From NCBI RefSeq assembly GCF_035555955.1, contig NZ_DATMGA010000028.1, forward strand, positions 106,402 to 170,401: 64,000 nt of DNA, written 5' to 3'. This stretch comes from Eoetvoesiella sp. (GTDB lineage Bacteria; Pseudomonadota; Gammaproteobacteria; Burkholderiales; Burkholderiaceae_B). A program made the translations under genes and the position numbers. The notes under the pieces are model-generated. The model ran no database searches. It saw only the letters and a program-made list of their open reading frames with translations, and was not told the DNA's origin. Positions 12,549 to 27,131 of this stretch are shown here, in pieces (position 1 is the first letter of the stretch; each line of letters opens with the position of its first letter).

Positions 12549-12581
12549 GCGAGACGACGCGGCGGCGTAAAGGAGAGACAA

Positions 12582-14267: not shown

Positions 14268-14746
14268 TGGTCAGCACGGAGCATGTAATCGGCACGCAGC
14301 CCTTCACCATACGCCGGACCGTCAAGTGGGGCGATTGCGACCCCGCTGGCGTGGTCTACACCGTGGTGTTCGGCGAGTACGTGATCTCGGCGGCCGAGCT
14401 GTTCTATCGGCATCTGTTCGGCGAAGGGCCGCAGCATGCCAAGGACAGGCACGGCTTTGGAACGCCGACGCGGGGCCTGACCTTCGACTTCCAGCGTTCG
14501 CTGCGCCCGGACGAGCAGTTCGACGTAGAGGTCACGGTGGGCGAGATCCGCTCGCGCACCTACACCCTGGTCATGCATGGGCGCACTTTGGCCGGCGAAA
14601 CGGTATTCGTCGCGCGGCTTACACCAATTTGCGTGGCGCGCGGAGAGCGCCGCGCCATTGATATGCCGCTCGTCCTGCGCGAGGCGCTGCAGGCATACCA
14701 GGCCGGTCAGGCGCTGGACCAAGAGCATCACACGAAGCAAAGCTAG
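14264..14746 (+). CDS. Hotdog-fold acyl-CoA thioesterase (4HBT/YbgC type)
   Basis: The N-terminus VKWGDCDPAGVVY carries the 4HBT catalytic Asp context. It is about 160 aa. Its start overlaps the ligase stop (ATGA), implying translational coupling. Confidence 0.75.
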   Translation: MMVSTEHVIGTQPFTIRRTVKWGDCDPAGVVYTVVFGEYVISAAELFYRHLFGEGPQHAKDRHGFGTPTRGLTFDFQRSLRPDEQFDVEVTVGEIRSRTYTLVMHGRTLAGETVFVARLTPICVARGERRAIDMPLVLREALQAYQAGQALDQEHHTKQS

Positions 14747-14803
14747 AAAGCATCATCCATAAACATTATCAAAAAGCATTACTCAAAAAACAGGAGACTA
14801 ATC

Positions 14804-15979
14804 ATGTCGATGAAATTGAAAATCGCATTGGGGCTGGCGTCCTTGCTGTGCGCCGCCCAGGCCGGCGCGGTGCAACCCGTCAAGCTGGGGTTCATTGCCG
14901 CGCAAAGCGGTCCGCTGGGCGTACTGGGGGCCGAGCAGAAGCGCGGCCTGGATCTGGCGCTGGAAGCGTTGGGCGGCAAGCTGGGCGGCCACCCTGTGGA
15001 ATTGTTCAGCGCCGATTCGCGCGGGGTGCCCGGCACGGCCGTGCAGGAGGCGTCCAAGCTGATAGAGAAGGATGAGGTGGACGTCATTACCGGCGCTACG
15101 GCGTCGAACGAGATCCTGGCCATGGTCAAGCCCATTTCCAGGGCCGGACTGACCCTGGTGGGGTCGAACGGCGGGCCGTCGCCGCTGGCCGGCAAAGAAT
15201 GCAATCCGGGCTATTACAGCGTGGCTTTCCAGAACGACCAATGGAGCGAGGGCATGGGCACCTATATGTCGGCCCACGGCGTCAAGCGCGCCTACTTCAT
15301 CGGCATGGACTACCAGGCGGGCTGGGACCACGTGGGCGGCGCGCAGCGCAGCTTCAAGGGTGAAACCGTTGCCAAGGTCTTCACGCCTCAGGCGCAGCTG
15401 GACTTCTCGGCCGAACTGGCGCAAATACGGGCCGCGAAGCCGGACGGCGTGTTCGCGTTCTACCCGGGCGGCGCGGCCATTGCGTTCGTGAAGCAGTACG
15501 CCCAGGCCGGGCTTTCCAAGACGATTCCGCTTTACTCGAATGCCGGCCTAGTCGATACGCTGTTCCTTCCCTCTTTCGGCGACAACGCAGTGGGCGTGGT
15601 GATCTCCAGCCACTACAGCGCCGACCTGGACAATGCGGCGAACAAGAAGTTCGTGGCCGCCTTCCGGGCTAAATACAAGCGCGATCCCTCCAGCTATGCC
15701 GCCTCGCAATACGATGCCGTAATGCTTATCGACCATGCTTTGCGCGACATCGGCGGCGACAAGATCGACAAGGCCAAGCTGCGCGCAGCCCTCGAGACCA
15801 CGAAATTCGACAGCGTGCGCGGGGCGTTCAAGTTCAACGTGAACCACATGCCCATCCAGAACATCTATGTGCAGCGCGTCGAGCGCGACAAGAACGGTGA
15901 GCTGGCCCTGCGCCTGCTGGGCGTGGCTCAGGAAAACGCCGCCGACCGCTATGCGCAGGACTGCGCCATGAAGAAGTAG
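14804..15979 (+). CDS. ABC transporter substrate-binding protein (LivJ/K-like, cluster B)
   Basis: Signal peptide MSMKLKIALGLASLLCAAQAGA followed by VKLGFIAAQSGP, typical of Leu/Ile/Val-binding family SBPs. Confidence 0.85.
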   Translation: MSMKLKIALGLASLLCAAQAGAVQPVKLGFIAAQSGPLGVLGAEQKRGLDLALEALGGKLGGHPVELFSADSRGVPGTAVQEASKLIEKDEVDVITGATASNEILAMVKPISRAGLTLVGSNGGPSPLAGKECNPGYYSVAFQNDQWSEGMGTYMSAHGVKRAYFIGMDYQAGWDHVGGAQRSFKGETVAKVFTPQAQLDFSAELAQIRAAKPDGVFAFYPGGAAIAFVKQYAQAGLSKTIPLYSNAGLVDTLFLPSFGDNAVGVVISSHYSADLDNAANKKFVAAFRAKYKRDPSSYAASQYDAVMLIDHALRDIGGDKIDKAKLRAALETTKFDSVRGAFKFNVNHMPIQNIYVQRVERDKNGELALRLLGVAQENAADRYAQDCAMKK

Positions 15980-15995
15980 CAGCAGGTTCAAGCTC

Positions 15996-16895
15996 ATGAC
16001 ACTGTCGAACTTATTCGAGCAGGTCTTCAACGGCCTGCAATACGGGATGCTGCTTTTCCTGATGGCCATGGGCGTGACCCTGATCTTCGGGGTCATGCGG
16101 CTGGTCAACCTTGCCCATGGTTCCATGTTCATGGTGGGCGGCTACCTGGCCAGCTCGGGACTGCAGGCTTCGGGATCCGTGTGGGTGGCCATAGCGTGCG
16201 CGCTGGTGGGTTCGGCGGTGCTGGGCGCCGTGCTTGAAATCCTGGTGATACGGCCGCTGTACCAGCGCGGCCACCTGGATCAACTGCTGGCCACGTTCGG
16301 CGTCACGCTTACGCTCAACGAACTGGTGGTGGTCATATGGGGGCGCGAACCTGTATTCATGCCGGTTCCCGCCTTGCTGACCGGCCAGGTATCGCTGCTG
16401 GGCGTGCCTTATCCGGTTTATCGGCTGGTCATTACCGGGGTGGCCGTGCTTACGGGGCTGATCCTGATGTGGCTGGTTTCGCGCACGCGCTTCGGCATGC
16501 TGGTGCGGGCCGGCGCCGACAACCGCACGATGGTTGCCGGGCTGGGGGTGAACGTGGTGCTGCTGTATACGCTGGTGTTCAGCCTGGCCGCGGTGCTGGC
16601 GGGTCTGGCGGGAATGATGTCGGGGCCGCTTATTTCCATGCAGCCGGCCGTCGGCGATCCCATTCTCATTCTCACCTTGTCGGTGGTCTGCATTGGCGGC
16701 TTCGGTTCGGTGCGCGGCGCGCTGGTGGCCTCGCTGCTGATCGGCCTGCTCGACACCTTCGGGCGGATATTCGCGCCGCAATGGTTCGGCGCAATGGGCA
16801 ATACCCTGGCCAATATGCTGGTGTACATCATCATGGCGCTGGTGCTGTTCTTCAAGCCCGCCGGCCTGTTCACGCTGACGGGGAAAAAAGCATGA
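15996..16895 (+). CDS. Branched-chain amino acid-type ABC transporter permease (LivH-like)
   Basis: 299 aa and polytopic hydrophobic. LVNLAHGSMFMVGGY is a LivH family motif. Confidence 0.85.
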   Translation: MTLSNLFEQVFNGLQYGMLLFLMAMGVTLIFGVMRLVNLAHGSMFMVGGYLASSGLQASGSVWVAIACALVGSAVLGAVLEILVIRPLYQRGHLDQLLATFGVTLTLNELVVVIWGREPVFMPVPALLTGQVSLLGVPYPVYRLVITGVAVLTGLILMWLVSRTRFGMLVRAGADNRTMVAGLGVNVVLLYTLVFSLAAVLAGLAGMMSGPLISMQPAVGDPILILTLSVVCIGGFGSVRGALVASLLIGLLDTFGRIFAPQWFGAMGNTLANMLVYIIMALVLFFKPAGLFTLTGKKA

Positions 16896-17899
16896 ATCCA
16901 AACACAAACCCCGCTTTTGCATTCCGGCGCGCCTGGATTCTTTGGGCCTTGCTGGCGCTGCTGCTGGTGCTGCCTTTGCTGGGCGAACCCTATTATGTGA
17001 AGCTGGCGACGCGCATGGTCATTTTCGGGCTGGCGGCGCTTAGCCTGGATCTACTGGTGGGCTATGCCGGGCTGATCAGCTTCGGGCATGCGGCCTTCAT
17101 GGGCGTGGGTGCCTATACCGTGGGAATACTGGCCAGCCATGGCCTGGCCAGCGCCTGGGTTGTCTGGCCGCTGGCCATGCTGGCCGGGGCCGTGCTGGCC
17201 TTGTGCATCGGCGCGGTCTCGTTGCGATGCAATGGGCTGTACTTCATTTTCATTACGCTGGCGTTTTCGCAGATGGTGTATTACGGGGCGCAAAGCCTGC
17301 GGCAGTATGGCGGGGACGACGGCTTTTCGCTGGATGCTTCCAGCACAATCCTGCCCGGCGTGGATGCTTCGGACCATACGGTGCTGTTCTATGCGTCGGT
17401 GGTATTGCTGTTGGTCGTTTTGTATGCTTGCCGGCGGCTGGTCATGTCGCCGTTCGGGCGGGTGGCCGTGGCGGTGCGCGACAATGAATTGCGCCTGCAG
17501 GCCGTGGGGGTAAGGCCGTATCCGTACAAGCTGGCGATGTTCGTGGTTTCGGGCGCCATCGGGGCCTTGGCGGGCGCGCTCATGGCCAATCTTACGGGCT
17601 TCATTTCGCCGGGCTATGTGTCGTGGCTGGTATCGGGCGAGCTGCTGGTCATGGTCATCCTGGGCTCGGTCGGCACGCTGGTGGGGCCGATACTGGGCGC
17701 CGCGCTGTTCGTCGCTTTCGAATATGTTCTGTCGGACTGGACCGAGCACTGGATGCTGGTGTTCGGCCCCTTGCTGGTGTTGCGGGTGCTGTTGCTCAAG
17801 GACGGCATATACGGTTTGCTTTTGCGCCGCCCGGCGGTTTCCGCGCCGGCAAGCGGCAGCGGGCGCGCCGAGCCTGCCGGGACGGGAGGGCAGGCATGA
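16892..17899 (+). CDS. Branched-chain amino acid-type ABC transporter permease (LivM-like)
   Basis: ATG 16892 overlaps the LivH stop. GYAGLISFGHAAFMGVGAY is a LivM family motif. The tracked 16337 start is in-frame read-through of the LivH region. Confidence 0.85.
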   Translation: MNPNTNPAFAFRRAWILWALLALLLVLPLLGEPYYVKLATRMVIFGLAALSLDLLVGYAGLISFGHAAFMGVGAYTVGILASHGLASAWVVWPLAMLAGAVLALCIGAVSLRCNGLYFIFITLAFSQMVYYGAQSLRQYGGDDGFSLDASSTILPGVDASDHTVLFYASVVLLLVVLYACRRLVMSPFGRVAVAVRDNELRLQAVGVRPYPYKLAMFVVSGAIGALAGALMANLTGFISPGYVSWLVSGELLVMVILGSVGTLVGPILGAALFVAFEYVLSDWTEHWMLVFGPLLVLRVLLLKDGIYGLLLRRPAVSAPASGSGRAEPAGTGGQA

Positions 17900-18651
17900 A
17901 TACGCCCTTGCTTGAAATTCGCGGCCTCAAGAAGAAATACGGCTCGTTGACCGTTACCGACAACGTGTCGCTTACCGTGAACGCCAACGAGCTGCATGCG
18001 CTTATCGGCCCCAACGGGGCGGGAAAGACCACCTTGGTCAGCCAGATATCGGGTCAGCTGATGCCCGATTCCGGTTCCATCCTGCTGGAAAGCGAAGACA
18101 TTGCCAGGCTGCCCACACCGCAGCGAACGCGGCGTGGCGTGGGCCGCTCGTTCCAGATAACCAGTATTTTTTCCAGCCTGACGGCCCAGGAAAATGTGGC
18201 GCTGGCGGTGCGGGCCAGCCTGGGGCAGAGCCGGGGTTTCTGGAAGCCGGCTTCGGCCTACGGCCAGGCGCGTCAACAGGCGCTGGACTTGCTGGAACAG
18301 GTGGGGCTGGGCGACTGCGGCGATGCGCCGTGCAATGAACTGGCCCACGGGCAGCTGCGCCAGCTGGAACTGGCGCTGGCCTTGGCCGCCAGGCCAAGAA
18401 TACTCGTCCTGGACGAGCCCATGGCGGGCCTGGGGCCGGTGGAAGCCCGCCATATGGTAGAGCTGCTTGCCTCGCTGAAGAATGAATGCGCCATTTTGCT
18501 GATCGAGCACGATATGGACGCCGTGTTCGCCCTGGCCGACCGGATTTCCGTTCTGGTGGCCGGCCGCGTGGTGCTTAGCGGTTCGGCGGACGACGTGCGC
18601 AACAGCGACGAAGTGCGCCAAGCGTATCTGGGAGACGACGATGAAGCATGA
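17896..18651 (+). CDS. ABC transporter ATP-binding protein (LivG-like)
   Basis: ATG 17896 overlaps the LivM stop. Walker A GPNGAGKTT and Walker B LVLDEPMAGL are present. Confidence 0.88.
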   Translation: MNTPLLEIRGLKKKYGSLTVTDNVSLTVNANELHALIGPNGAGKTTLVSQISGQLMPDSGSILLESEDIARLPTPQRTRRGVGRSFQITSIFSSLTAQENVALAVRASLGQSRGFWKPASAYGQARQQALDLLEQVGLGDCGDAPCNELAHGQLRQLELALALAARPRILVLDEPMAGLGPVEARHMVELLASLKNECAILLIEHDMDAVFALADRISVLVAGRVVLSGSADDVRNSDEVRQAYLGDDDEA

Positions 18652-19387
18652 CGGAGTATTGCCTGCCCAGGAAGGTTCCGGGGTGCTGCTGGCGCTGGAC
18701 GGCGTATGCAGCGGCTATGGCCTGGGCCAGGTGCTGTTCGAGGTTTCCATGACGATCCGCAAGGGCGAAGTCGTTTCCCTGATGGGGCGCAACGGCATGG
18801 GCAAGACCACGCTCATCCGCACGGTCATGGGCATGCTGGCGCCTCGCGCCGGGAACATTCAATTTGGCGAGCGGCGGCTCAACGGCCTGGCCATGCATCG
18901 CGTCGCCGCGCTTGGGCTGGGCTGGGTGCCCGAGGGGCGGTTCATTTTCCCCAGCCTTTCTGTGGAAGAGAACCTGGTCGCCACGGCATCGCGCCGGGCC
19001 GTATCGGGGCAGCCATGGACGCTGGAGCGCATCTACGAGCTATTTCCGCGGTTGTACGAGCGGCGCAGGAACGGCGGCGCCCAGCTTTCGGGCGGCGAGC
19101 AGCAAATGCTGACCATAGGCAGGGCGCTGATGACGAATCCCAGCCTGCTGATCCTGGACGAGGCGACGGAAGGCTTGTCGCCCAAGATACGCCAGGAAAT
19201 CTGGCGGACACTGGGCGTCGTCAAAAGCACCGGCCAGTCGATACTGGTGGTCGACAAGGACGTTCGCGCCCTGGCGAAGCTGGCCGACCGCCATTACATG
19301 ATTGAAAAAGGGCGCATTGCGTGGGAAGGCGATTCGGCGGCGTTGTTCGCCGACGCCGGCCTGGCGCAGCGCTATGTGGGTTTATGA
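18641..19387 (+). CDS. ABC transporter ATP-binding protein (LivF-like)
   Basis: Walker A GRNGMGKTT, signature LSGGEQQ and Walker B LILDEATEGL. It overlaps the LivG end by 11 nt. Confidence 0.88.
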   Translation: MKHDGVLPAQEGSGVLLALDGVCSGYGLGQVLFEVSMTIRKGEVVSLMGRNGMGKTTLIRTVMGMLAPRAGNIQFGERRLNGLAMHRVAALGLGWVPEGRFIFPSLSVEENLVATASRRAVSGQPWTLERIYELFPRLYERRRNGGAQLSGGEQQMLTIGRALMTNPSLLILDEATEGLSPKIRQEIWRTLGVVKSTGQSILVVDKDVRALAKLADRHYMIEKGRIAWEGDSAALFADAGLAQRYVGL

Positions 19388-19409
19388 ATTTATTGGAAAA
19401 GGTGTGCTC

Positions 19410-20540
19410 ATGAAGATCGATGTCGTTGGCGGCGGTCCGGCCGGAATGTATTTTTCAATGCTGATGAAAAAGCACGATCCTGGTCATCGCATCCGCATAT
19501 TCGAACAGAACCCCATGGACGCGACATACGGATGGGGCGTGGTTTTCTCGGACGTGGCGTTGAGCTTCCTGGAAAAGGCGGATCCCGTCTTCTACAAGAA
19601 GTTCATTGCGGGGCACGAGCGCTGCGACTATATGGAAATCGTGCACAAGGGCGTGCATGTCCAGTTGAAGAACAATCATTTTTCACGCGCTTCCCGCATC
19701 AATCTGCTGAAGACACTGCGTGAGGAATGCCTGGCGCAGGGTGTGGAGTTCGAATTCGGAACCCGCATCGACAATGCCGGCAAGCTGGACGGCGCGGACG
19801 TCATTGTGGCGGCGGACGGCGGCAACAGCGCCATTCGCACCCAGTTCGCCCAGCACTTCCAGCCCACCATCGAGACGCGGCGCAACAAGTTCGCCTGGTA
19901 TGGCACGCGCCAGCTCTTTCATCCCGTGTCGCTTATTTTCCGGGAAACCGAGCATGGCGTGTTCATGGCCCACTCCTACCAGTACAGCAAGGAGCTAAGC
20001 ACCTTCCTGGTCGAGGTGGACCCCGAAACATGGCGCCGCGCCGGCCTGGACACCATGACGGACGAGGAAAGCCGCCGCTATTGCGAAAGCGTGTTTGCGC
20101 CCGAGCTGGGCAGCAATGGCCTGTTGTCGAACCGTTCCATCTGGTTCAACGCGAACGTGGTCAGCAATGCCAAATGGAGTCACGGCAACATCGTGCTGCT
20201 GGGCGACGCCCTGCGCAGCGTGCATTTCTCGCTGGGCTCGGGCACACGCATGGCCATGCAGGATGCGATTGCGTTGCAGGAAGCCTTTACCCGCAACGGC
20301 AGCAACGTGCAGGCGGCTTTCGCCGATTTCGAAGGCCAGCGCCGCGACTCCTCGTCCAATTTCCAGGAGGCCGCCGCCAAGAGCCTGGACTGGTACGAGA
20401 ACATCGGCGAGAAGATGGGGCTGGACCCCGTTTCGTTCGCCTACGACTACATGCGCCGCACCGGCCGCGTCAGCCACGACGACCTGCGCGAACGCGACCC
20501 CGATTTCGTGGCCAGCTACGAGGCGATTGCGGCGGCGTAG
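19410..20540 (+). CDS. FAD-dependent monooxygenase resembling the N-terminal half of salicylyl-CoA 5-hydroxylase / 2-aminobenzoyl-CoA monooxygenase-reductase
   Basis: ATG 19410. MKIDVVGGGPAGMYFSMLMKK...YGWGVVFSD matches the N-terminal pattern I recall for that family. GDALRSVHFSLGSG is the FAD ribityl-binding motif. There is no OYE-like reductase domain. Confidence 0.7.
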   Translation: MKIDVVGGGPAGMYFSMLMKKHDPGHRIRIFEQNPMDATYGWGVVFSDVALSFLEKADPVFYKKFIAGHERCDYMEIVHKGVHVQLKNNHFSRASRINLLKTLREECLAQGVEFEFGTRIDNAGKLDGADVIVAADGGNSAIRTQFAQHFQPTIETRRNKFAWYGTRQLFHPVSLIFRETEHGVFMAHSYQYSKELSTFLVEVDPETWRRAGLDTMTDEESRRYCESVFAPELGSNGLLSNRSIWFNANVVSNAKWSHGNIVLLGDALRSVHFSLGSGTRMAMQDAIALQEAFTRNGSNVQAAFADFEGQRRDSSSNFQEAAAKSLDWYENIGEKMGLDPVSFAYDYMRRTGRVSHDDLRERDPDFVASYEAIAAA

Positions 20541-20563
20541 CTGGGTCTTGGCATGGCCGGGTC

Positions 20564-21196
20564 CTAGTTCTTGGGGTTTTCCCACAGCACGTCGGATCCG
20601 CCCGCGTTTTTGTTTAGTACGCGGGCCAGCACGAAGCATAGGTCCGAGAGGCGGTTCAGGTATTGGCGGGGCGGTTCGTTGACCGGTTCGCTGCGATGCA
20701 GCGTGATGACCGATCTTTCCGCGCGGCGGCAGACGGTGCGGGCCAGGTGGGCCAGCGATGCCGCCTGCGTGCCGCCGGGCAGTATGAATTCCTTGAGCGG
20801 GGTCAGCGTGGCGTTGTGTTCGGCCAGGGCGGTATCCAGAAAGGCCACGTGTTCGGCTGTCAAAGCCGTGTGATCCGGAATGCACAGCTCCGCGCCGAGG
20901 TCGAACAGGTGATGCTGGATGCGGGACAGGAGAGCATCGACCTGGCTTCGAGCATGAATTCGATTTTCACCCGTGATATGGCCAAGGCCGGGACGCGGGC
21001 GTGCATCCTGCGTTGGCTCGTCGGCGCCGTCGTGTTGTATTTGCGCGCGCAGCATGCCTATGACGGTGTTCAGTTCGTCCACGTCGCCCATGGCGGCGAT
21101 GCGCGGCGCGTCCTTGTCGACGCGGCTGCCGTCGCCAAGGCCGGTGGTGCCCTGGTCGCCGGTGCGGGTTGCAATGACTGACAAGCGTGTGGCCAT
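20564..21196 (-). CDS. PduO-type ATP:cob(I)alamin adenosyltransferase
   Basis: TRTGDQGTTGL...MGDVDELN is the PduO/MMAB N-terminal signature. It converges on the monooxygenase gene. Confidence 0.85.
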   Translation of the reverse strand: MATRLSVIATRTGDQGTTGLGDGSRVDKDAPRIAAMGDVDELNTVIGMLRAQIQHDGADEPTQDARPRPGLGHITGENRIHARSQVDALLSRIQHHLFDLGAELCIPDHTALTAEHVAFLDTALAEHNATLTPLKEFILPGGTQAASLAHLARTVCRRAERSVITLHRSEPVNEPPRQYLNRLSDLCFVLARVLNKNAGGSDVLWENPKN

Positions 21197-21297
21197 GGTG
21201 ATTTCCTTGGATGCCGCTGGGGCTTACAATTGAGTGTCCGGTCGCGGTGCCCGCATGCTGGTTGCGGAACACGGACGCCGATCAAGGAGTGTAGCGT

Positions 21298-21600
21298 ATG
21301 TCTTTTTCCCATCGTCATTTGCAGCAGGCCTTGGCGGCGGCGCTGGCCGTGGCTTCGGTGTATTCGGCCGCGGCCGTTGCGCAGGAAGCCTCGGGCTCGG
21401 GCGAAGTGCGCCGGGTGGACCCTGCCGCCGGAAAAATCACCATCAAACAGGGCGCCATCGCCGACTTGCAATTGCCGGCCATGACGCTGGTCTATCGTGC
21501 CGACCCGGCCCTGCTGAAAGACATCAAGCCCGGCGACAAGATCAGCTTCAGCGCAAAGCGCGAGGGCGATAAATACGTGGTCACCAAAATCAGCAAATAA
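21298..21600 (+). CDS. CusF-like periplasmic OB-fold protein (degenerate metal site)
   Basis: A signal peptide followed by GEVRRVDPAAGKITIKQGAIADLQLPAMTLVY, which aligns with the CusF core (ITIHHDPI..WPEMTMRF) with most ligands replaced. Confidence 0.6.
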   Translation: MSFSHRHLQQALAAALAVASVYSAAAVAQEASGSGEVRRVDPAAGKITIKQGAIADLQLPAMTLVYRADPALLKDIKPGDKISFSAKREGDKYVVTKISK

Positions 21601-21816
21601 GCGTGAATGGACGGGCGCAGGGGTGGAGCCGTAACCGCCCTCACGCTGCGCCCGCATTGCGGCGAGCGGCTTACACGCCTCAACGGGATCCCCCTCGATA
21701 AACGTTAACAGGCCCTAAAGGCCGTTCCGGCCTGGCGTTGCGCGTTCGGCCAACTCCTGTGCGCAGTTCCCCTGGATGAGCAGGATGGTCTTCGTGACAA
21801 TGGGTCCATGGTGAAG

Positions 21817-21915
21817 AGCTCCGGCCCAAGGGCCGGAGCTTCTCCGCCACGATACGGGGGCGCCTTGGGCGCCGTATCGACGTTGCCTAGCTTGACTTCG
21901 GCCTGAAGGCCGAGG
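21817..21915. repeat. Cluster of three GC-rich REP/BIME-like hairpins
   Basis: AGCTCCGGCC-caag-GGCCGGAGCT (21817-21840); CGATACGGgGGCGCC-ttg-GGCGCCCCGTATCG-like (21850-21879); CTTCGGCC-tgaa-GGCCGAGG (21896-21915). Confidence 0.6.
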
Positions 21916-21956
21916 CTTGCGCTTTGGCGTGTGGTCAATGGCCGGACACCCTATTC

Positions 21957-23453
21957 ATGAAAACCAATTTCTCGGCGGCCCAGCTCGGGCAGCCGCATAT
22001 CGCCGAAGCGGACAAAATACTTAAAACCTGCCAGCACTTCGGCTTTTGCACCTCTGGCTGTCCCACCTACGTGATCCTGCATGATGAGAACGACGGCCCG
22101 CGCGGGCGCATCGACCTCATCAAGGAAATGCTGGAAAGCGGCCAGCCACCTTCGGCCAAGACTGTCGAACACATCGACCGCTGCCTTTCGTGCATGTCGT
22201 GCATGACGACCTGCGCCGTCAATGTGGACTATATGCATCTGGTCGATACCGGCCGGGCGCATATCGAAGCGCATTACCGGCGGCCGTTCCGCGAGAGGCT
22301 GGCTCGAAACGCATTAGCCTATGTGCTGCCGCGCCCCGCGCTGTTCCGGCCGGCTCTGGCCCTGGGACGCCTGGCCGCAAGAGTCGAATACCTGGTGCCG
22401 CGTTCGATGCGGCACGCCCTGAAGCTTTTGCCCAAGAACCCGCCGGCCGATACCGTTGTGGCCGTTGATGCCAGCACCGGCGGTAGCGGCAACATCGACG
22501 TTGGCGGCACGACGCCCGCTTACCTATACCCCGCCTGGGGCGTCAGGCGATGGCGGGTTGCCATGCTGCCGGGTTGCGTGCAGCCGGTGCTGTCGCCGCA
22601 CATCAACGCCGCCACCATACGCCTGCTCAACCGCTTTGGCTGCGACGTCGTCATCCCCGCGGCAAGCGCCTGTTGCGGCTCGCTGACCTTGCATATGGGC
22701 AAGCAGGCCGCCGCAAAGGGATTTGCGGCCCGGAATGTGCGGGCCTGGCAAGAGGAGCTGGACGGCGAAGGCCTGGACGCCATTCTGGTCAATGCCTCGG
22801 GCTGCGGCACCACGGTCAAGGACTACGGCCATTTGCTGGGCGACGACGTGGACCTGGCTCCAGCCGCCGCGCGGGTGGCGGCGCTTGCCATGGATATCTG
22901 CGAATGGCTTGCCCGCATGGATATCCCCGAACCGGCAGCGCCCCGGCGCCATCGCGTGGCGTATCACGATGCCTGTTCGCTGCGCAACGCGCAGAAGGTG
23001 ACCACCCAGCCGCGAGCCTTGCTACGCAAGGCGGGCTTCCAGGTGGCGGATATTCCCGAAGCCCACTTCTGTTGTGGCTCGGCCGGCACCTACAACCTGC
23101 TGCAGCCGGCCATGGCCGCGCAGCTTGGCGAGCGCAAGGCCGCGAACATTGCCCGCACCGAACCGCAGATCGTGGCGGCGGGCAATATTGGCTGCATTAC
23201 CCAAATCGGCCTCTACAGCGGCGTTCCCATCGTGCATACGGTGGAGTTGCTGGACTGGGCCCATGGCGGCCCGCTGCCCGCGGCGTTGCGGTGGGTGGTG
23301 CTGCCGCCGCTGGAGCCTGAAGCCGCGCCCGAAGCGTTGGGAGCAAGGGAGGCCGGCTTTGCGAACGGCAAGCCAGGCGGCGAAGCGAGTGGTGGATTGA
23401 GCGGTAGCTTGAATGGCAAGGACGCCGGCGATGGCAGCGTCGGCATTTGGTAA
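21957..23453 (+). CDS. GlcF-like (Fe-S)-binding CCG-domain protein (glycolate oxidase iron-sulfur subunit family) with a C-terminal low-complexity tail
   Basis: Collinear with E. coli GlcF: DGPRGRI, CLSCMSCMTTCA, MLPGCVQPVLSP, CCGSAGTYNL, GNIGC. The first cluster motif reads CQHFGFCTSGCP, one Cys short of CxxCxxCxxxCP. Confidence 0.8.
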   Translation: MKTNFSAAQLGQPHIAEADKILKTCQHFGFCTSGCPTYVILHDENDGPRGRIDLIKEMLESGQPPSAKTVEHIDRCLSCMSCMTTCAVNVDYMHLVDTGRAHIEAHYRRPFRERLARNALAYVLPRPALFRPALALGRLAARVEYLVPRSMRHALKLLPKNPPADTVVAVDASTGGSGNIDVGGTTPAYLYPAWGVRRWRVAMLPGCVQPVLSPHINAATIRLLNRFGCDVVIPAASACCGSLTLHMGKQAAAKGFAARNVRAWQEELDGEGLDAILVNASGCGTTVKDYGHLLGDDVDLAPAAARVAALAMDICEWLARMDIPEPAAPRRHRVAYHDACSLRNAQKVTTQPRALLRKAGFQVADIPEAHFCCGSAGTYNLLQPAMAAQLGERKAANIARTEPQIVAAGNIGCITQIGLYSGVPIVHTVELLDWAHGGPLPAALRWVVLPPLEPEAAPEALGAREAGFANGKPGGEASGGLSGSLNGKDAGDGSVGIW

Positions 23454-23488
23454 TCAATGTATGCATCAATGAAAAACGAGGAAGAGAC

Positions 23489-25009
23489 ATGAACGAAAAT
23501 CTGCAAGCCTTCTTGAAGGCCGTGTCGGACGATATGGGTGCGCAATGGGTCGATACGCGCCCCGAAACCCTGAGCCGCTATGGGGAACATACCTTGCCGG
23601 ACAAGCCGCGTCCGCCTGCGGCGGTGCTGTTTCCCGATTCGACGGCGCAGGTGCAGGGCATCGTCAAGGCCGCCAATCGGTACGGCGTCGAGCTTTACCC
23701 GATCAGCACGGGCAACAATATCGGCCTGGGTTCGCGCGCCCCGGCCGGCGCGGGCCAGGTGGTGGTGGACCTGGGCTACCGGATGAACCGCATCCTGGAC
23801 ATCAACGAAGAAACCTGCCTGGCCGAGCTCGAGCCAGGCGTGAGCTTTCAGATGCTGCACGACGAATTGGCCCGGCGCGGCGACAAGCTGATGCTGTCCG
23901 CCACCTCGGGGCCGCCCCACGGCGGCGTCATCGGCAACGCCATGGATCGCGGCGCCGGCTACGGTCCGTACTTCGACCACTTCGGCATGCTTTGCGGCAT
24001 GGAGGTCGTGCTGGGCAACGGCGACATCATCCGCACCGGCGACGGCAGCCTGGACACCGACCAGCTCACCAACTGGCATGTTTCCAAGTATTCGTTCGGC
24101 CCCGCGCTGGACGGCCTGTTCTGCCAGTCCAACTACGGCATCGTGACGCGGGTGGGCATTTGGCTGATGCCGCGCCCGCCCGCGGCGCGCTCCTTCCATT
24201 TCGTGTTTCCCGACGACGAGGACATCGAGCAGATCATCGATTTGTGCCGTCCCATGAAGCTCTCGAATTTCGTGCCGTCGCTGTTCCGCATCAGCAACGA
24301 TTTATACGCCATGGCGCCCGACGAGCAGAACCCCGAGTACCGGGCGGGCAGCAAGGCGGGTTTCTCGGACGAGGGGCGCAAGGCGTTGCAGGCCAGGCAC
24401 GGCCTGGGGGCCTGGCAGGTGTCGGGCATGTTCTATGGCGCTTCGGACGCGGCGATCGAACCGCTGATCCAGCGGGTAAGGGCTCATTTCGAGCGCGGCG
24501 GAAAGGCGAAATACATCGGCCACGACGAGGCGCTGAATATTCCCGCCCTGCATATCGCCATCGATGCCATGAGCGGCAGGCCCAGCCCAAGCGAATTGGG
24601 CATGCTGCAATGGCGGCCGGGCAGCGGCAATTCGTGGTTCCTGCCGGGAACGCCCATGGTCGGCAAGCAGGCGCTGGAACTGGACAGGCTGGGACGCGGC
24701 ATTTATGCCAAGCACGGCATGGACTACATCATCATGCACGTGGCTTCGGCCAGGTTTGCCCGGGGGCTGCATGTCCTGGTCTGGAACAAGGACGACGAGG
24801 ACGAGAACGCGCGGGCCGACGCCTGCTATCGCGAGCTGTCGGCGGAGTTTGCCAAGCGTGGCGTGGGCGTGGGCCGCGCGCCCGCCGACTACTACGACCT
24901 GCATATGGAAATGACCATGCCCGCCTTGCAGAAGGCCTGCAGCGAAATCAAGAAGGCGCTGGATCCGAACGGGGTGATCAGCCCGGGCAAATACGGGATA
25001 CGCGGTTAA
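23489..25009 (+). CDS. PCMH/VAO-family FAD-binding oxidoreductase (p-cresol methylhydroxylase flavoprotein-like)
   Basis: ATG 23489 after GAGGAAGAG. YPISTGNNIGLGSRAP, GNAMDRGAGYGPY, CGMEVVLGNGD and GIVTRVGIWLMPRP parallel the PchF sequence as I recall it. Confidence 0.75.
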   Translation: MNENLQAFLKAVSDDMGAQWVDTRPETLSRYGEHTLPDKPRPPAAVLFPDSTAQVQGIVKAANRYGVELYPISTGNNIGLGSRAPAGAGQVVVDLGYRMNRILDINEETCLAELEPGVSFQMLHDELARRGDKLMLSATSGPPHGGVIGNAMDRGAGYGPYFDHFGMLCGMEVVLGNGDIIRTGDGSLDTDQLTNWHVSKYSFGPALDGLFCQSNYGIVTRVGIWLMPRPPAARSFHFVFPDDEDIEQIIDLCRPMKLSNFVPSLFRISNDLYAMAPDEQNPEYRAGSKAGFSDEGRKALQARHGLGAWQVSGMFYGASDAAIEPLIQRVRAHFERGGKAKYIGHDEALNIPALHIAIDAMSGRPSPSELGMLQWRPGSGNSWFLPGTPMVGKQALELDRLGRGIYAKHGMDYIIMHVASARFARGLHVLVWNKDDEDENARADACYRELSAEFAKRGVGVGRAPADYYDLHMEMTMPALQKACSEIKKALDPNGVISPGKYGIRG

Positions 25010-25015
25010 CAGGCT

Positions 25016-25969
25016 CTAGTGCTTGTTGACGGACTCCGGCTGGCGGCTGCGATAGGCGGAAGGGGTCACGCCGAAGCGGCGCTTGAAAAGATGGTTGAAG
25101 TGCGAGATGTCGTTGAACCCGCAGCTGTAGGCGATATTCGCAATGGGAAGCCGCGCGGATGAATCCAGTTTCTTGCTTGCCGAAGCCAGTCGTTCTTCGG
25201 TGATGAAGTCCGTAAAGCTGCTGTCCATCTGCTGCATGATTTTCTGCACCAGGCGGCGCGACATGCTCAAGGCAAGGGCTACCGAATCCAGTGTCAGATC
25301 GGGGTCGCAGAGCTTCTTGCGGATGTATCGCACGACCGTCTGGCGGCGCAGGTCTTGCGAGTCGATGCGATCCGCGCCCGCGTGTCCCGCCGTGATCTGG
25401 AGCAGGTTGCAGATGTTTTCGGTAAGCAGTTCCATATCGGACGAAACCAGCGTGGAGTTTTCGCTGGAAAGTTCGGTCAGGTACGAGAACAGCACCTCGG
25501 CAAGGGGGCCAGCCGGTGTGAAAGCCAGAGCGGAAGAGCGCATCAGGCCGGGCAGGCGTTCTTCGACCGAGCGTGCGGGCAGCTTGGCGACGACCCGCCG
25601 CACTTCGGAAGGGAAGGCCACGTGCATGGGCCTTCGCCCATCGACGATCGCGATGCTGCCCGGCAGCAGCCGCATCTGGGCATTGCCTTGTTCGATATGG
25701 GCGGCGCCGCCTATTTGCCAGCTAAGCAGGTATCCCGCGCCGCCCGCATTGCTTAACTGTTCGCGGCCGCAGTAAACGTCGTGAGGCTTGCTCCAGAACG
25801 AGGCGCAGCTCAGGTCGCCATAGCGCCGCCCGGAGATCTTCGCGGCGAAATCGCGGGACGAAAGATTGTCGACCCGCACGTTGTGGATCATTTTGCAGAT
25901 TGCATCCAGCCAGGAGCTTCTGGAGTCCGGTTCTGGACGGATGTCGGTGGACATTACGATCATTTGCAT
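25016..25969 (-). CDS. AraC family transcriptional regulator
   Basis: C-terminal double HTH (IANIAYSCGFNDISHFNHLFKRRFGVTPSAYR). The start was taken at 25969 (alternatives 25963 and 25954) because the tracked 26251 start overlaps the neighbouring LysR gene. Confidence 0.8.
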   Translation of the reverse strand: MQMIVMSTDIRPEPDSRSSWLDAICKMIHNVRVDNLSSRDFAAKISGRRYGDLSCASFWSKPHDVYCGREQLSNAGGAGYLLSWQIGGAAHIEQGNAQMRLLPGSIAIVDGRRPMHVAFPSEVRRVVAKLPARSVEERLPGLMRSSALAFTPAGPLAEVLFSYLTELSSENSTLVSSDMELLTENICNLLQITAGHAGADRIDSQDLRRQTVVRYIRKKLCDPDLTLDSVALALSMSRRLVQKIMQQMDSSFTDFITEERLASASKKLDSSARLPIANIAYSCGFNDISHFNHLFKRRFGVTPSAYRSRQPESVNKH

Positions 25970-26054
25970 TGCAGGCTCCGGACGCCCTGCTGCGGGCAGT
26001 ATGCTGTTTGGCTGGTTTGCGTGTTCAGGCAGGCCAACAGGGCACGAGTATTCT

Positions 26055-26987
26055 TCAACGATCCAATGACGTTCCAATTGCTTCGGCGCCATACCACGTG
26101 CCCGGCTCCAGGCTGGCCGCCAGGGTGGAAAGCAGAAGCCTGCGCCCCTCGAGCGCGGCCTGGGAGTGCGAACGGGCTTCGTTTTCGTACAGGGCCCAGG
26201 TAAGGTACATGCCCTTGATGGGCGCCCATTGGATTGCCTTGCCCAGGCCATGGCCGTGCAGCGCGCAGGCCGGCACGACAGTATGGCCGAAGCGGCGGCT
26301 GGCCAGTTCCAGGCACAGTCTCAGTGTATCGGTTTCGACTATGGTGCGAAAGGTCATGGACTTGCGGTTGAGCGCGTTTTCGATTTGCGTGCGCAGCACG
26401 TTGGGGCGCGCCGGAAGAACCAGCTGCAGGTCGTTCAACTGGGTGATGGGCACGGGCTCGTCCGGAGCCAGGCTGGTTTGCGCGTGGCCCACCAGCACCA
26501 GAGGCTCGCGCAGCAAGGCGGTTTGCCGGTAGCCGCTGGGCGGGGTCTGGTCGAAGGGCACGATGCATAAATCGAGCAGGCCGGCCAGCAGATGCTCGCG
26601 CAGCAGGTTGCTGACGCCTTCGTACATGCGCAGCATGATGCCGGGGTATTCCCGCAGTAGCGTATCCACGAAGGCCAGGGTGAATACATGATGCCAGGAG
26701 GGCGGAATGCCGATGGACAATTGCCCCGCCGCGCGCTCGCCCACTTGTTCCTTGAGGACGGCGAACTGGCGCAGCAAGGGGCGCGCCCGGTCGGCCAGCA
26801 GCTTGCCCGCATCGGTCAGGCGCACGCCGCCTTGCGAACGGGTGAAAAGCTGCGCCTTCATTTCGTGTTCGAGCGCGGCGATGTGGCGTGACAAGGCGGG
26901 CTGCGACAACCCCAGATCGGCGGCGGCGCGGTTGATGCTGCCCAGCTCGGCGACCCGCAAATAGCATTCCAGCAATCGTGAATCCAT
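26055..26987 (-). CDS. LysR family transcriptional regulator
   Basis: MDSRLLECYLRVAELGSINRAAADLGLSQPALSRHIAALE is the wHTH. It is divergent from the 27132 operon. Confidence 0.9.
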   Translation of the reverse strand: MDSRLLECYLRVAELGSINRAAADLGLSQPALSRHIAALEHEMKAQLFTRSQGGVRLTDAGKLLADRARPLLRQFAVLKEQVGERAAGQLSIGIPPSWHHVFTLAFVDTLLREYPGIMLRMYEGVSNLLREHLLAGLLDLCIVPFDQTPPSGYRQTALLREPLVLVGHAQTSLAPDEPVPITQLNDLQLVLPARPNVLRTQIENALNRKSMTFRTIVETDTLRLCLELASRRFGHTVVPACALHGHGLGKAIQWAPIKGMYLTWALYENEARSHSQAALEGRRLLLSTLAASLEPGTWYGAEAIGTSLDR

Positions 26988-27032
26988 AGATGCCTATTAT
27001 CCACAAAATGGCTAACAATTATAGATCAATAG

Positions 27033-27048
27033 CATTATTCAGATAATG
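27033..27048. promoter_or_regulatory. Inverted repeat CATTATTCAGATAATG, candidate LysR-type site
   Basis: Dyad in the AT-rich divergent region between the LysR gene (26987) and the dehydrogenase gene (27132). Confidence 0.35.
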
Positions 27049-27131
27049 GGACGCTGTCTACACTTGTTGCAATGTTCGAGGGCTTGAGTACCGGGCCACG
27101 GGAAAACACACAGAAAGGCACAGTGAGTAGC

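What the first reader, a model, noticed from the sequence alone, without database searches (positions are those of the whole stretch)
21957..25009. Orphan GlcF-like Fe-S/CCG protein paired with a p-cresol-methylhydroxylase-type flavoprotein, a possible non-canonical two-component dehydrogenase
Seen in sequence: a GlcF-like gene with no glcD or glcE is followed 35 nt later by a PCMH/VAO-family flavoprotein gene, with a convergent AraC regulator. The GlcF-like protein has three oddities. Its first ferredoxin motif is CQHFGFCTSGCP (Phe where the second Cys is expected). It has an internal insertion (…VDASTGGSGNIDVGGTTPAYLYPAWG…). It carries a C-terminal Gly/Ala/Pro-rich tail of about 70 aa. Established: PchF-type flavoproteins normally pass electrons to a cytochrome c subunit (PchC), while VAO uses O2. 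GlcF is the Fe-S/CCG electron-exit subunit for the GlcD/E flavoproteins. Inference: the GlcF-like protein may replace the cytochrome subunit and couple 4-alkylphenol-type (or other) substrate oxidation to the quinone pool. I am not aware of such a pairing being characterised.
Basis: partly seen in the sequence, partly recalled or inferred. Interest (0 to 1): 0.65.

Follow-up and report, generated by a model that had tools for sequence, protein, structure and literature searches.

The report
Flavoprotein dehydrogenase with iron-sulfur partner
Two adjacent genes, one a relative of p-cresol methylhydroxylase and one a modified copy of the glycolate-oxidase iron-sulfur subunit, stay together across many proteobacterial genomes, which points to an undescribed two-subunit dehydrogenase whose substrate is probably not a phenol.

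Summary
A GlcF-like gene (21957-23453) lies 35 nt upstream of a VAO/PCMH-fold flavoprotein gene (23489-25009), with a convergent AraC gene. No glcD or glcE is in the window.

The pairing is not chance. In 80 related genome loci the GlcF-like gene is directly upstream in 66 and elsewhere in the locus in 7. The two proteins' divergences correlate (r=0.91).

The partner is not an orphan GlcF. It belongs to a separate clade with three coupled signatures:
- Phe or Tyr replaces the second Cys of ferredoxin motif 1, giving the three-Cys pattern of the SdhB/FrdB [3Fe-4S] site.
- Ala replaces Pro after motif 2.
- A disordered C-terminal linker ends in an invariant Trp.

The flavoprotein's best structural match is PchF (TM 0.89). 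It has lost both phenolate-binding tyrosines and both known covalent-FAD residues, clade-wide. Its cytochrome-c-linked relatives keep them. A p-cresol-type substrate is therefore unlikely.

Best reading: a cytoplasmic flavo-iron-sulfur dehydrogenase in which the GlcF-derived subunit replaces cytochrome c as electron acceptor. The substrate is unknown and possibly a carboxylate. The complex, the cluster type and the quinone link are all inferred. I found no paper describing the pair, and databases name the parts "GlcF" and "4-cresol dehydrogenase".

The parts
21957..23453 (+). GlcF-like Fe-S/CCG subunit gene (498 aa): a ferredoxin-like domain followed by two CCG domains
   Evidence: Pfam finds CCG twice plus Fer4 families. 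NCBIfam GlcF model NF008434 scores 403 bits against a cut-off of 333. It is 38% identical to E. coli GlcF. The AF2 model has pLDDT 84.8. Foldseek matches are LutA, EtfD and HdrB.
22029..22064 (+). Ferredoxin motif 1, CQHFGFCTSGCP: three Cys, with Phe28 where the second Cys is expected
   Evidence: F or Y occupies this position in all about 70 partner proteins from genome loci and in 120 of 120 nearest clusters. The pattern matches the three-Cys motifs of E. coli SdhB (CHSIMNCVSVCP) and FrdB (CTFVGYCSEVCP).
22182..22217 (+). Ferredoxin motif 2, CLSCMSCMTTCA: four Cys, with Ala where canonical GlcF has Pro
   Evidence: Ala in 120 of 120 nearest clusters. Canonical representatives have CP.
22473..22520 (+). 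Strain-specific 16-aa insertion (STGGSGNIDVGGTTPA) in the linker between the ferredoxin domain and CCG domain 1
   Evidence: Absent from all other clade members, including Eoetvoesiella caeni DSM 25520. pLDDT is below 50 for residues 169-186.
22566..23201 (+). Two CCG domains. Conserved Cys: C207, C239-C240, C283; and C340, C372-C373, C413
   Evidence: Pfam PF02754 matches twice. These Cys are invariant in alignment A2. The fold matches LutA (TM 0.90 on the target) and HdrB.
23289..23450 (+). C-terminal extension: a low-complexity Gly/Ala/Pro/Ser linker ending in GIW (23442-23450)
   Evidence: Linker length and sequence vary, but the last residue is Trp in 120 of 120 nearest clusters. All partner proteins from genome loci end in G/A-hydrophobic-W. 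Residues 459-498 are predicted disordered. Canonical GlcF representatives lack it, with one full-length exception.
23454..23488 (+). 35-nt spacer with a Shine-Dalgarno-like GAGGAAG; probable co-transcription
   Evidence: Sequence read. No terminator-like site lies in the spacer. Spacers are 5-77 nt in 60 other loci.
23489..25009 (+). VAO/PCMH-fold flavoprotein gene (506 aa), sister group of the 4-phenol oxidoreductases. Key residues: L80, R83, G141-P142-P143, E369, L373, N381, R425, H428, G462, R463
   Evidence: Pfam FAD_binding_4. PchF E=5e-100. Foldseek PchF 1DII TM 0.89. The listed residues are invariant or nearly so in 87 sequences.
25016..25969 (-). AraC-family regulator (317 aa) with an AraC_binding_2 sensor domain; convergent here
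   Evidence: Pfam HTH_18, HTH_AraC and AraC_binding_2. Nearest NCBIfam model is FeaR at 120 bits, below its cut-off of 199. A homologous regulator lies beside the pair in 42 of 79 loci and in L087, L088 and L090.

Best explanation
The two genes encode the subunits of one cytoplasmic flavo-iron-sulfur dehydrogenase.

Catalytic subunit. The 506-aa protein has the fold of p-cresol methylhydroxylase and vanillyl-alcohol oxidase. It binds FAD non-covalently. It has the Pro plus small-residue pair at the flavin N5 that marks the oxygen-unreactive dehydrogenases of that family. It has replaced the phenolate-binding Tyr-Tyr pair with Leu and Gly. It keeps the family's Arg and has two further invariant Arg residues. 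It therefore oxidises something other than a 4-alkylphenol. A carboxylated compound is possible.

Electron-accepting subunit. The 498-aa protein descends from GlcF and takes the place that cytochrome c (PchC) holds in classical enzymes. It receives the electrons of the reduced flavin through its chain of Fe-S clusters. One of these is predicted to be a [3Fe-4S] cluster, because its second Cys ligand is Phe or Tyr, as in the high-potential cluster of SdhB/FrdB. The chain then passes the electrons on, most likely to the respiratory quinone pool.

Tail and regulation. The flexible C-terminal tail ending in Trp may tether or dock the Fe-S subunit to the flavoprotein or to the membrane. The neighbouring AraC-family regulator probably switches the pair on in response to the substrate.

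Shown: sequence features, fold, clade-wide conservation, gene linkage. Inferred: complex formation, direction of electron flow, cluster type, quinone as acceptor, role of the tail, nature of the substrate.
For: Linkage.
- The GlcF-like gene is directly upstream on the same strand in 66 of 80 genome loci, elsewhere in the locus in 7, and absent with full flanks in only 4. Spacers are 5-77 nt.
- Pairwise identities of the two proteins correlate, r=0.91 over 61 pairs.
- The loci span Alpha-, Beta- and Gammaproteobacteria.
- Searching from the Fe-S side, three distant signature-bearing proteins (35-46% identity by tblastn) are each followed directly by the same kind of flavoprotein.

Dedicated partner clade.
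- 120 of 120 nearest clusters have F/Y at Cys-II of motif 1, Ala after motif 2 and a terminal Trp.
- Nearly all other representatives of the GlcF family have CxxCxxCxxxCP twice and no such tail.
- A canonical GlcF at 52% identity follows a GlcE.
- No glcD or glcE lies in the window or in any of the 80 loci.

Cytochrome replaced.
- Relatives at 35-36% identity on plasmids pNL2 and pSULKU01 are flanked by cytochrome c genes and keep Tyr95, Tyr384 and Tyr473-Arg474.
- This clade has no conserved CxxCH ORF. Neither protein has a signal peptide or a transmembrane helix.

Dehydrogenase signature.
- G141-P142 align with D150-P151 of Marinicaulis VAD, the N5 site. The signature is described in PMC7617285.

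Three-Cys motif.
- It has the same pattern as the SdhB and FrdB three-Cys motifs. That these bind [3Fe-4S] is established knowledge.
- 4PO flavins are high-potential: VAD has Em +82 mV (PMC7617285). A higher-potential cluster is therefore a sensible acceptor (inference).

Fold of the Fe-S subunit.
- It matches LutA, EtfD and HdrB, which are flavoprotein-to-acceptor Fe-S modules (EtfD wiring in PMC13083937).
Against: - No experiment and no expression data exist; no RNA runs hold this sequence.
- Physical interaction could not be modelled with these tools.
- The Fe-S subunit has no membrane segment and no heme partner, so the route to quinone is unproven. It is unproven for GlcF itself too.
- Four loci with full flanks have the flavoprotein without a nearby GlcF-like gene (L029, L030, L046, L053). 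The flavoprotein may therefore work alone or with a distant partner.
- Three Cys ligands plus an aromatic residue could also give a [4Fe-4S] cluster with a non-Cys ligand, or no cluster at all.
- The flavoprotein model is only moderately confident (pLDDT 72), and lowest around the active site. Residue roles rest on sequence alignment alone.
- Neighbouring genes vary between lineages and give no consistent pathway.
Confidence: 0.6

Rival explanations
1. One reading: a p-cresol or 4-alkylphenol methylhydroxylase in which GlcF replaces the cytochrome c subunit. The substrate is still a 4-substituted phenol oxidised through a quinone methide.
For: - PchF is the best sequence and structure match.
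- Arg474 and Glu380 of PchF are kept as R463 and E369.
- Aromatic-catabolic genes often lie nearby: Rieske dioxygenases in L001 and L087, and salicylyl-CoA hydroxylase-type genes in the window and L092.
- An SDR follows the flavoprotein in 8 loci, as in 4-ethylphenol pathways.
Against: - Both phenolate-binding tyrosines are lost (Tyr95 to Leu, Tyr473 to Gly). Both known covalent-FAD positions are lost too, in essentially all 87 clade members.
- All solved 4-phenol enzymes shown in alignment, and the cytochrome-linked relatives, keep the tyrosines.
- The association with aromatic genes is not general.
Confidence: 0.1
2. A functionally reduced GlcDF-type enzyme. The flavoprotein has a PCMH fold but oxidises a D-2-hydroxy acid or similar carboxylate, as GlcD and D-lactate dehydrogenases do. 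It uses the GlcF-type subunit in the way GlcDEF does.
For: - The partner descends from GlcF.
- The flavoprotein has invariant Arg residues (R83, R425) at positions where PchF has Ala and His in the pairwise alignment.
- Carboxylate-type binding proteins (TctC/Bug, LivJ-like) sit beside the pair in L088, L090, L096 and more than 20 loci.
Against: - The flavoprotein is not a GlcD ortholog: TIGR00387 scores 59.5 bits against a cut-off of 567.9, and D-LDH structures match at TM 0.71 against 0.89 for PchF.
- No GlcE-like second flavoprotein is present.
- The Cys-to-Phe/Tyr change and the tail distinguish the partner from GlcF proteins that serve GlcD/E.
Confidence: 0.15
3. Neighbours without partnership. 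The flavoprotein is a self-sufficient oxidase or uses a soluble acceptor. The GlcF-like protein serves another enzyme, for example GlcD/E encoded elsewhere.
For: - Four loci have the flavoprotein without a GlcF-like gene within 8 kb.
- A non-covalent-FAD family member (nsVAO) works as an oxidase (PMC7617285).
Against: - 73 of 80 loci keep the two together, and the proteins co-diverge (r=0.91).
- The partner clade's three signatures occur with this flavoprotein and nearly never in GlcF proteins next to GlcE.
- The flavoprotein carries the Pro plus small-residue signature of oxygen-unreactive members.
Confidence: 0.08

Closest known systems
p-Cresol methylhydroxylase PchCF and the 4-phenol oxidoreductase group of the VAO/PCMH family (VAO, EUGO, EUGH, VAD, nsVAO)
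   Same: - Same two-domain FAD fold: PchF 1DII at TM 0.89, E=5e-100.
- Same length class.
- Glu380 and Arg474 equivalents are kept.
- Pro plus small residue at the flavin N5, as in the dehydrogenase members.
- The principle of a flavoprotein that hands electrons to a separate redox protein.
   Different: - Both phenolate-binding tyrosines are replaced (Leu, Gly).
- There is neither Tyr384 nor the His422-type residue for covalent FAD.
- There is no cytochrome c gene; the partner is a 498-aa Fe-S/CCG protein.
- No signal peptide was seen on either protein (a simple N-terminal inspection). A relative's locus (pSULKU01) encodes cytochrome c and a Tat-signal protein.
- Only O2 and cytochrome c are described as acceptors for this group (PMC7617285).
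Glycolate oxidase/dehydrogenase GlcDEF (Fe-S subunit GlcF)
   Same: - The partner has the GlcF architecture: a ferredoxin-like domain with two Cys motifs, then two CCG domains.
- It is 38% identical to E. coli GlcF.
- It scores above the NCBIfam GlcF cut-off.
- It shares the ELLDWAxGGP segment of proteobacterial GlcF proteins.
   Different: - No glcD or glcE is adjacent.
- Motif 1 has three Cys, with an aromatic residue at the second position.
- Motif 2 ends CA instead of CP.
- It has a disordered C-terminal linker ending in Trp.
- The flavoprotein partner belongs to a different subfamily of FAD_binding_4 proteins.
Iron-sulfur subunits of complex II (SdhB, FrdB)
   Same: The three-Cys motif C-x-x-hydrophobic-x-x-C-x-x-x-C-P (FrdB CTFVGYCSEVCP, SdhB CHSIMNCVSVCP) paired with a four-Cys motif. 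That arrangement binds one [3Fe-4S] and one [4Fe-4S] cluster and passes flavin electrons to quinone.
   Different: - No overall homology beyond the ferredoxin-like motifs.
- The order of the two motifs is reversed.
- No [2Fe-2S] domain and no membrane-anchor subunits.
- The cluster type here is predicted, not measured.
EtfD, LutA/LutABC and HdrB/HdrC (CCG-domain Fe-S modules)
   Same: - Best structural matches of the Fe-S subunit model (9A6L LutA, 9OJN EtfD, 5ODC HdrB).
- In EtfD a chain of CCG-domain and cubane clusters wires a flavoprotein (ETF) to the quinone pool.
   Different: - EtfD has five transmembrane helices and a heme b that make the quinone site. This protein has neither.
- The donors differ: ETF, lactate-oxidising LutB/C, HdrA.
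- Sequence identity is only 15-23%.

Membership tests
4-phenol oxidoreductases (VAO/PCMH family: PchF, VAO, EUGO, EUGH, VAD) | Overall sequence and fold similarity to PchF/VAO | tested here: met
   phmmer E=5e-100 to PchF and 1e-72 to VAO. Foldseek TM 0.89 to 1DII.
4-phenol oxidoreductases (VAO/PCMH family: PchF, VAO, EUGO, EUGH, VAD) | Tyr-Tyr-Arg triad that binds the substrate phenolate (PchF Tyr95, Tyr473, Arg474) | tested here: not met
   The equivalents are L80, G462 and R463. These are L in 85 of 87, G in 86 of 87 and R in 86 of 87 clade members. PchF, VAD, nsVAO and the pNL2 and Sulfuricurvum relatives keep Tyr, Tyr, Arg.
4-phenol oxidoreductases (VAO/PCMH family: PchF, VAO, EUGO, EUGH, VAD) | Covalent FAD through Tyr384 (PchF type) or His422 (VAO type) | tested here: not met
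   The equivalents are L373 and N381, near-invariant in the clade. One characterised member, nsVAO, also lacks the link (PMC7617285), so this alone does not exclude membership.
4-phenol oxidoreductases (VAO/PCMH family: PchF, VAO, EUGO, EUGH, VAD) | Electron acceptor is O2 or a cytochrome c subunit encoded next to the flavoprotein | tested here: not met
   No conserved CxxCH ORF in 79 loci, and a GlcF-like gene instead. Relatives on pNL2 and pSULKU01 do have flanking cytochrome c genes. O2 reactivity is not testable here.
GlcF, Fe-S subunit of glycolate oxidase GlcDEF | Ferredoxin-like domain plus two CCG domains; family model score | tested here: met
   Pfam CCG twice plus Fer4. NCBIfam NF008434 scores 403 bits against a cut-off of 333.
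GlcF, Fe-S subunit of glycolate oxidase GlcDEF | Two complete CxxCxxCxxxCP motifs | tested here: not met
   The motifs are CQHFGFCTSGCP and CLSCMSCMTTCA. Canonical representatives have both motifs complete.
GlcF, Fe-S subunit of glycolate oxidase GlcDEF | Encoded with glcD and glcE | tested here: not met
   No GlcD or GlcE match in the window or within 8 kb in 80 loci. A canonical GlcF at 52% identity does follow a GlcE. Whether these genomes hold glcDEF elsewhere could not be tested.
GlcD / D-lactate dehydrogenase type flavoproteins | Orthology of the flavoprotein to GlcD | tested here: not met
   TIGR00387 scores 59.5 bits against 567.9, and NF008408 30.3 against 897. The matches cover only the FAD-binding domain. 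D-LDH structures match at TM 0.71.
[3Fe-4S]+[4Fe-4S] ferredoxin-type sites (as in SdhB/FrdB) | One motif lacks the second Cys and the other motif is complete | tested here: met
   The motif pattern matches E. coli SdhB and FrdB.
[3Fe-4S]+[4Fe-4S] ferredoxin-type sites (as in SdhB/FrdB) | A [3Fe-4S] cluster is actually present (EPR, Moessbauer) | not testable with these tools
   Needs purified protein.
FeaR (AraC-family regulator of aromatic amine/aldehyde catabolism) | Equivalog-level match | tested here: not met
   NF007243 scores 120 bits against a cut-off of 199. The AraC HTH and AraC_binding_2 domains are present. It is an AraC-family regulator of unknown effector.

The most novel reading that the evidence does not exclude
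A widespread and so far undescribed class of cytoplasmic flavo-iron-sulfur dehydrogenases.
- A PCMH/VAO-fold flavoprotein has given up phenol binding and covalent flavinylation.
- It delivers electrons to a GlcF-derived subunit instead of cytochrome c or O2.
- That subunit was re-tuned by converting one cubane cluster to a [3Fe-4S] cluster.
- The subunit docks through a tethered C-terminal Trp peptide.
- This opens the 4-phenol-oxidoreductase scaffold to non-phenolic, possibly carboxylated, substrates and links them directly to the respiratory chain.
Probability: 0.4. Interest if true: 0.72.

Novelty: new variant of a known kind. Interest (0 to 1): 0.62.

Why it matters
- The 4-phenol oxidoreductases are a much-studied model for how flavoenzymes choose between O2 and a protein acceptor. 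They are also a source of biocatalysts for lignin-derived aromatics. Only O2 and cytochrome c are described as their acceptors. A third acceptor type, an Fe-S/CCG protein, together with an active site that no longer binds a phenolate, would widen both the known chemistry and the known wiring of the family.
- GlcF is poorly understood: no solved structure matched it by sequence in the PDB search, and its own electron acceptor is not established, to my knowledge. A natural variant with a systematic ligand change and a new tail gives a handle on which cluster does what.
- Annotation is affected. The GlcF-like members that carry a source name are mostly labelled 'glycolate oxidase subunit GlcF', and many flavoprotein members '4-cresol dehydrogenase (hydroxylating)'. 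Both names are probably wrong, and metabolic reconstructions inherit them.

Tried and rejected
- Rfam scan of 20500-27100 at E up to 1: no RNA family.
- Promoter and terminator scan of 21100-25200: nothing above the shuffled background.
- Search for RNA-seq runs holding the locus: only metagenomic DNA runs, so co-transcription could not be shown.
- Neighbourhood clustering of ORFs in 79 loci to infer the substrate. Beyond the pair, only regulators recur widely: AraC in 42 loci and IclR in 27. A luciferase-like monooxygenase (21 loci) with a flavin reductase (7), an SDR (8), an alpha/beta hydrolase (6) and TctC or LivJ-type binding proteins recur in subsets. The rest is lineage synteny (FtsK, LolA and others).
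- NCBIfam scans of these neighbours gave no specific pathway.
- Link to a salicylyl-CoA 5-hydroxylase-type cluster, seen in the window and on a Rhizobium plasmid: it holds in only those two lineages, so I rejected it as a general clue.
- 'Reduced glcDF' reading: rejected on the flavoprotein alignment and model scores.
- Literature searches combining GlcF, CCG, heterodisulfide reductase or 3Fe-4S with p-cresol methylhydroxylase or 4-cresol dehydrogenase found no description of the pair. The one hit (PMC13416013) concerns a GlcDEF-like trimer of an anaerobic benzene degrader, a different system.

Full report
**What is there**

The window is 62-65% G+C. Its nearest relatives are Eoetvoesiella (Alcaligenaceae). 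The flavoprotein is 97% identical to that of a MAG named Eoetvoesiella caeni and 88% identical to the type strain DSM 25520.

The finding covers two same-strand genes:
- A 498-aa GlcF-like protein (21957-23453).
- A 506-aa FAD_binding_4 protein (23489-25009).

They are separated by 35 nt that carry a GAGGAAG ribosome-binding site. An AraC-family gene (25016-25969, minus strand) ends 6 nt from the flavoprotein stop, and a LysR gene follows it. Upstream lie a CusF-like gene (21298-21600), two or three hairpins, and a divergent PduO-type cobalamin adenosyltransferase gene. E. coli GlcD and GlcE find nothing in the 64 kb except the FAD domain of the flavoprotein itself.

**The flavoprotein**

It is not a GlcD. 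It scores E=5e-100 against PchF, the flavoprotein of p-cresol methylhydroxylase. It scores 1e-72 to 1e-91 against VAO, eugenol oxidase, Marinicaulis vanillyl-alcohol dehydrogenase (VAD, 8S7x) and Novosphingobium nsVAO (9FFK). D-lactate and glycolate dehydrogenase types reach only 1e-11 to 1e-13. The GlcD model TIGR00387 gives 59.5 bits against a cut-off of 567.9. An AlphaFold model (pLDDT 72) matches PchF 1DII at TM 0.89 and D-LDH at 0.71.

The residues that define the 4-phenol enzymes are mostly gone. In the HMMER alignments:

| Role in classical enzymes | Classical residue | Residue here |
|---|---|---|
| Phenolate binding | PchF Tyr95 | L80 |
| Phenolate binding | PchF Tyr473 | G462 |
| Phenolate binding | PchF Arg474 | R463 (kept) |
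| Covalent FAD, PchF type | PchF Tyr384 | L373 |
| Covalent FAD, VAO type | the His aligned in VAD (taken here to correspond to VAO His422) | N381 |
| Catalytic Glu | PchF Glu380 | E369 (kept) |

These residues are invariant or nearly so in 87 clade members. So are R83, R425, H428 and the TSGPP loop. G141-P142 align with D150-P151 of VAD, the flavin N5 site. Pro plus a small residue there is the published signature of the oxygen-unreactive dehydrogenases (PMC7617285).

Relatives at 35-36% identity on plasmids pNL2 (Novosphingobium) and pSULKU01 (Sulfuricurvum) keep Tyr95, Tyr384 and Tyr473-Arg474. They are flanked by cytochrome c genes. So there are two sister groups. One has the classical active site and a cytochrome c partner. 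The other has a rebuilt active site and a different partner.

**The Fe-S protein**

It has the GlcF architecture and scores above the NCBIfam GlcF cut-off (403 against 333 bits). It is 38% identical to E. coli GlcF. Its model is confident (pLDDT 84.8, pTM 0.85) apart from residues 169-186 and 459-498. Structurally it resembles LutA, mycobacterial EtfD and HdrB.

Three features set its clade apart:
- **Motif 1** is C-x-x-[F/Y]-G-F-C-x-x-x-C-P, so the second Cys is aromatic.
- **Motif 2** ends C-A instead of C-P.
- **The C-terminus** carries a variable low-complexity linker that ends in G/A-hydrophobic-Trp.

All three are present in every one of about 70 partner proteins taken from genome loci and in 120 of 120 nearest protein clusters.

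Among the 150 best family representatives at 50% clustering, nearly all others have two complete CxxCxxCxxxCP motifs and no such ending. The few with an aromatic at Cys-II also have CA or CG. Where full-length, they also end in Trp. One full-length canonical representative (P0220) also ends in W. So does P0267, which looks truncated.

In a ferredoxin fold the last Cys of motif 2 completes the cluster held by motif 1. This is established knowledge. The first two changes therefore affect the same cluster, which is left with three Cys ligands. The resulting pattern is that of the three-Cys motifs of E. coli SdhB (CHSIMNCVSVCP) and FrdB (CTFVGYCSEVCP). Those motifs bind the [3Fe-4S] cluster next to the quinone site, which is also established knowledge. 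A [3Fe-4S] cluster here is a prediction.

- The Cys-to-Phe change is a clade signature.
- The tail is a clade signature. It is about 54 aa long rather than 70, and its end is conserved.
- The insertion is a strain-specific, disordered 16-aa stretch.

**Linkage**

A scan of one genome per species found 197 loci encoding a relative of the flavoprotein, and the best 80 were kept.

| Position of the GlcF-like gene | Loci (of 80) |
|---|---|
| Directly upstream, same strand (spacers 5-77 nt) | 66 |
| Elsewhere in the locus | 7 |
| Absent, with full flanks | 4 |
| Undetermined, contig ends too soon | 3 |

Pairwise identities of the two proteins correlate (Pearson 0.91, 61 pairs).

The hosts include:
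- Alcaligenaceae, Comamonadaceae and Paraburkholderia.
- Pseudomonas oryzihabitans.
- Many Alphaproteobacteria: Bosea, Microvirga, Mesorhizobium, Rhizobium and Xanthobacteraceae.

Starting from the Fe-S side gives the same answer. Three distant signature-bearing proteins (P0129, P0175, P0253; 35-46% identity by tblastn) are each followed directly by a flavoprotein with the same active-site pattern. A canonical GlcF at 52% identity follows a GlcE instead. No conserved CxxCH ORF lies near the pair. Neither protein has a signal peptide or a transmembrane helix.

**How it most likely works**

The flavoprotein oxidises its substrate. Its N5 signature predicts poor reaction of the reduced flavin with O2, so the flavin would pass electrons to the Fe-S subunit encoded just upstream. 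That subunit replaces the periplasmic cytochrome c of classical enzymes and places the system in the cytoplasm.

By analogy with EtfD, electrons run from a flavoprotein through CCG-domain clusters and two cubane clusters toward quinone (PMC13083937). By analogy with GlcDEF, the likely sink is the quinone pool.

Flavins of this family are high-potential (VAD +82 mV, PMC7617285). Converting one low-potential cubane cluster into a higher-potential [3Fe-4S] cluster would be a sensible adaptation to such a donor. This is inference.

The tethered terminal Trp could dock into the flavoprotein or sit at the membrane interface. This is speculation.

Every step beyond sequence, fold and linkage is inferred.

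**Substrate**

The loss of both tyrosines argues against a 4-alkylphenol. Some hints point to a carboxylated compound:
- Extra invariant arginines in the flavoprotein.
- TctC/Bug or LivJ-type binding proteins beside the pair in several lineages.
- A UbiD decarboxylase in one locus.

An SDR ortholog follows the flavoprotein in 8 loci. That would fit a hydroxylation product being oxidised further. The regulators are AraC_binding_2-type or PcaR/PobR-like IclR proteins. None of this fixes the substrate.

**Comparison and novelty**

The parts belong to known superfamilies, but each fails defining features of the family it is named after. The flavoprotein fails the 4-phenol oxidoreductase tests: no triad, no covalent-FAD residue, no cytochrome. 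The partner fails the GlcF tests: incomplete motif 1, no glcD/E.

The recent phylogenetic and structural survey of the 4-phenol enzymes describes only O2 and cytochrome c as acceptors (PMC7617285). Four literature searches found no description of this pairing. Public sources name the proteins 'glycolate oxidase subunit GlcF' and '4-cresol dehydrogenase (hydroxylating)'.

I rate it a new variant of a known kind. It is common in soil and sludge Proteobacteria, coherent in its signatures and untested experimentally.

Noticed in passing
window 21298-21600 (+) and 21817-21916: A CusF-like periplasmic copper-binding protein gene (Pfam CusF_Ec, E=1.6e-24) lies 356 nt upstream of the GlcF-like gene. 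Two perfect hairpins follow it (21817-21840, 21850-21879), and a third is visible by eye at about 21897-21916. No Rfam family matches.
   Followed up: partly
L001, L002, L003 and a JGI contig compared with window 21800-27000: Metagenome contigs carry 98-100% identical copies of the GlcF-like, flavoprotein and AraC genes. Several break 130-146 nt upstream of the GlcF-like gene. They differ in what follows the AraC gene: a LysR gene plus a Liv-type transporter and a Rieske dioxygenase cluster in L001, against a LysR gene plus beta-oxidation-type genes in L002 and the window. The three-gene module therefore sits in variable contexts within one species-level group.
   Followed up: partly
L028 6627-9515: In one alphaproteobacterial MAG the GlcF-like reading frame runs without a stop into the flavoprotein frame, giving a 964-aa ORF, after an apparent frameshift near 7816. 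This is either a natural fusion that lacks the Trp tail or a sequencing error in the assembly.
   Followed up: no
window 11682-20540: An upstream cluster contains:
- a VOC/glyoxalase-fold protein;
- an aryl-acid adenylating enzyme/CoA ligase (nearest model 2,3-dihydroxybenzoate-AMP ligase, below its cut-off);
- a five-gene Liv-type ABC transporter;
- a 376-aa monooxygenase that matches only the N-terminal half of the 768-residue model for bifunctional salicylyl-CoA 5-hydroxylase/oxidoreductase (391 bits, cut-off 1078).

A full-length salicylyl-CoA 5-hydroxylase cluster also lies beside the gene pair on Rhizobium leguminosarum plasmid p3 (L092). The association is not seen in other lineages.
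   Followed up: partly
window 21957-25009 and database names: The NCBIfam GlcF equivalog model scores this clade above its cut-off. RefSeq therefore names the members 'glycolate oxidase subunit GlcF', and JGI names the flavoproteins '4-cresol dehydrogenase (hydroxylating)'. Both names are probably systematic mis-annotations.
   Followed up: yes
L029, L030, L046, L053: Four alphaproteobacterial loci hold a flavoprotein with the full clade signature but no GlcF-like gene within 8 kb. An IclR-family gene sits directly upstream instead. L029 comes from the same MAG as the paired locus L031, so some genomes carry a paired and an unpaired copy.
   Followed up: partly
window 20564-21196 (-): The PduO-type cob(I)alamin adenosyltransferase matches its family model in two stretches. 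The best covers residues 80-206 against model positions 43-171. This suggests an insertion of roughly 35 residues after the N-terminal segment.
   Followed up: no
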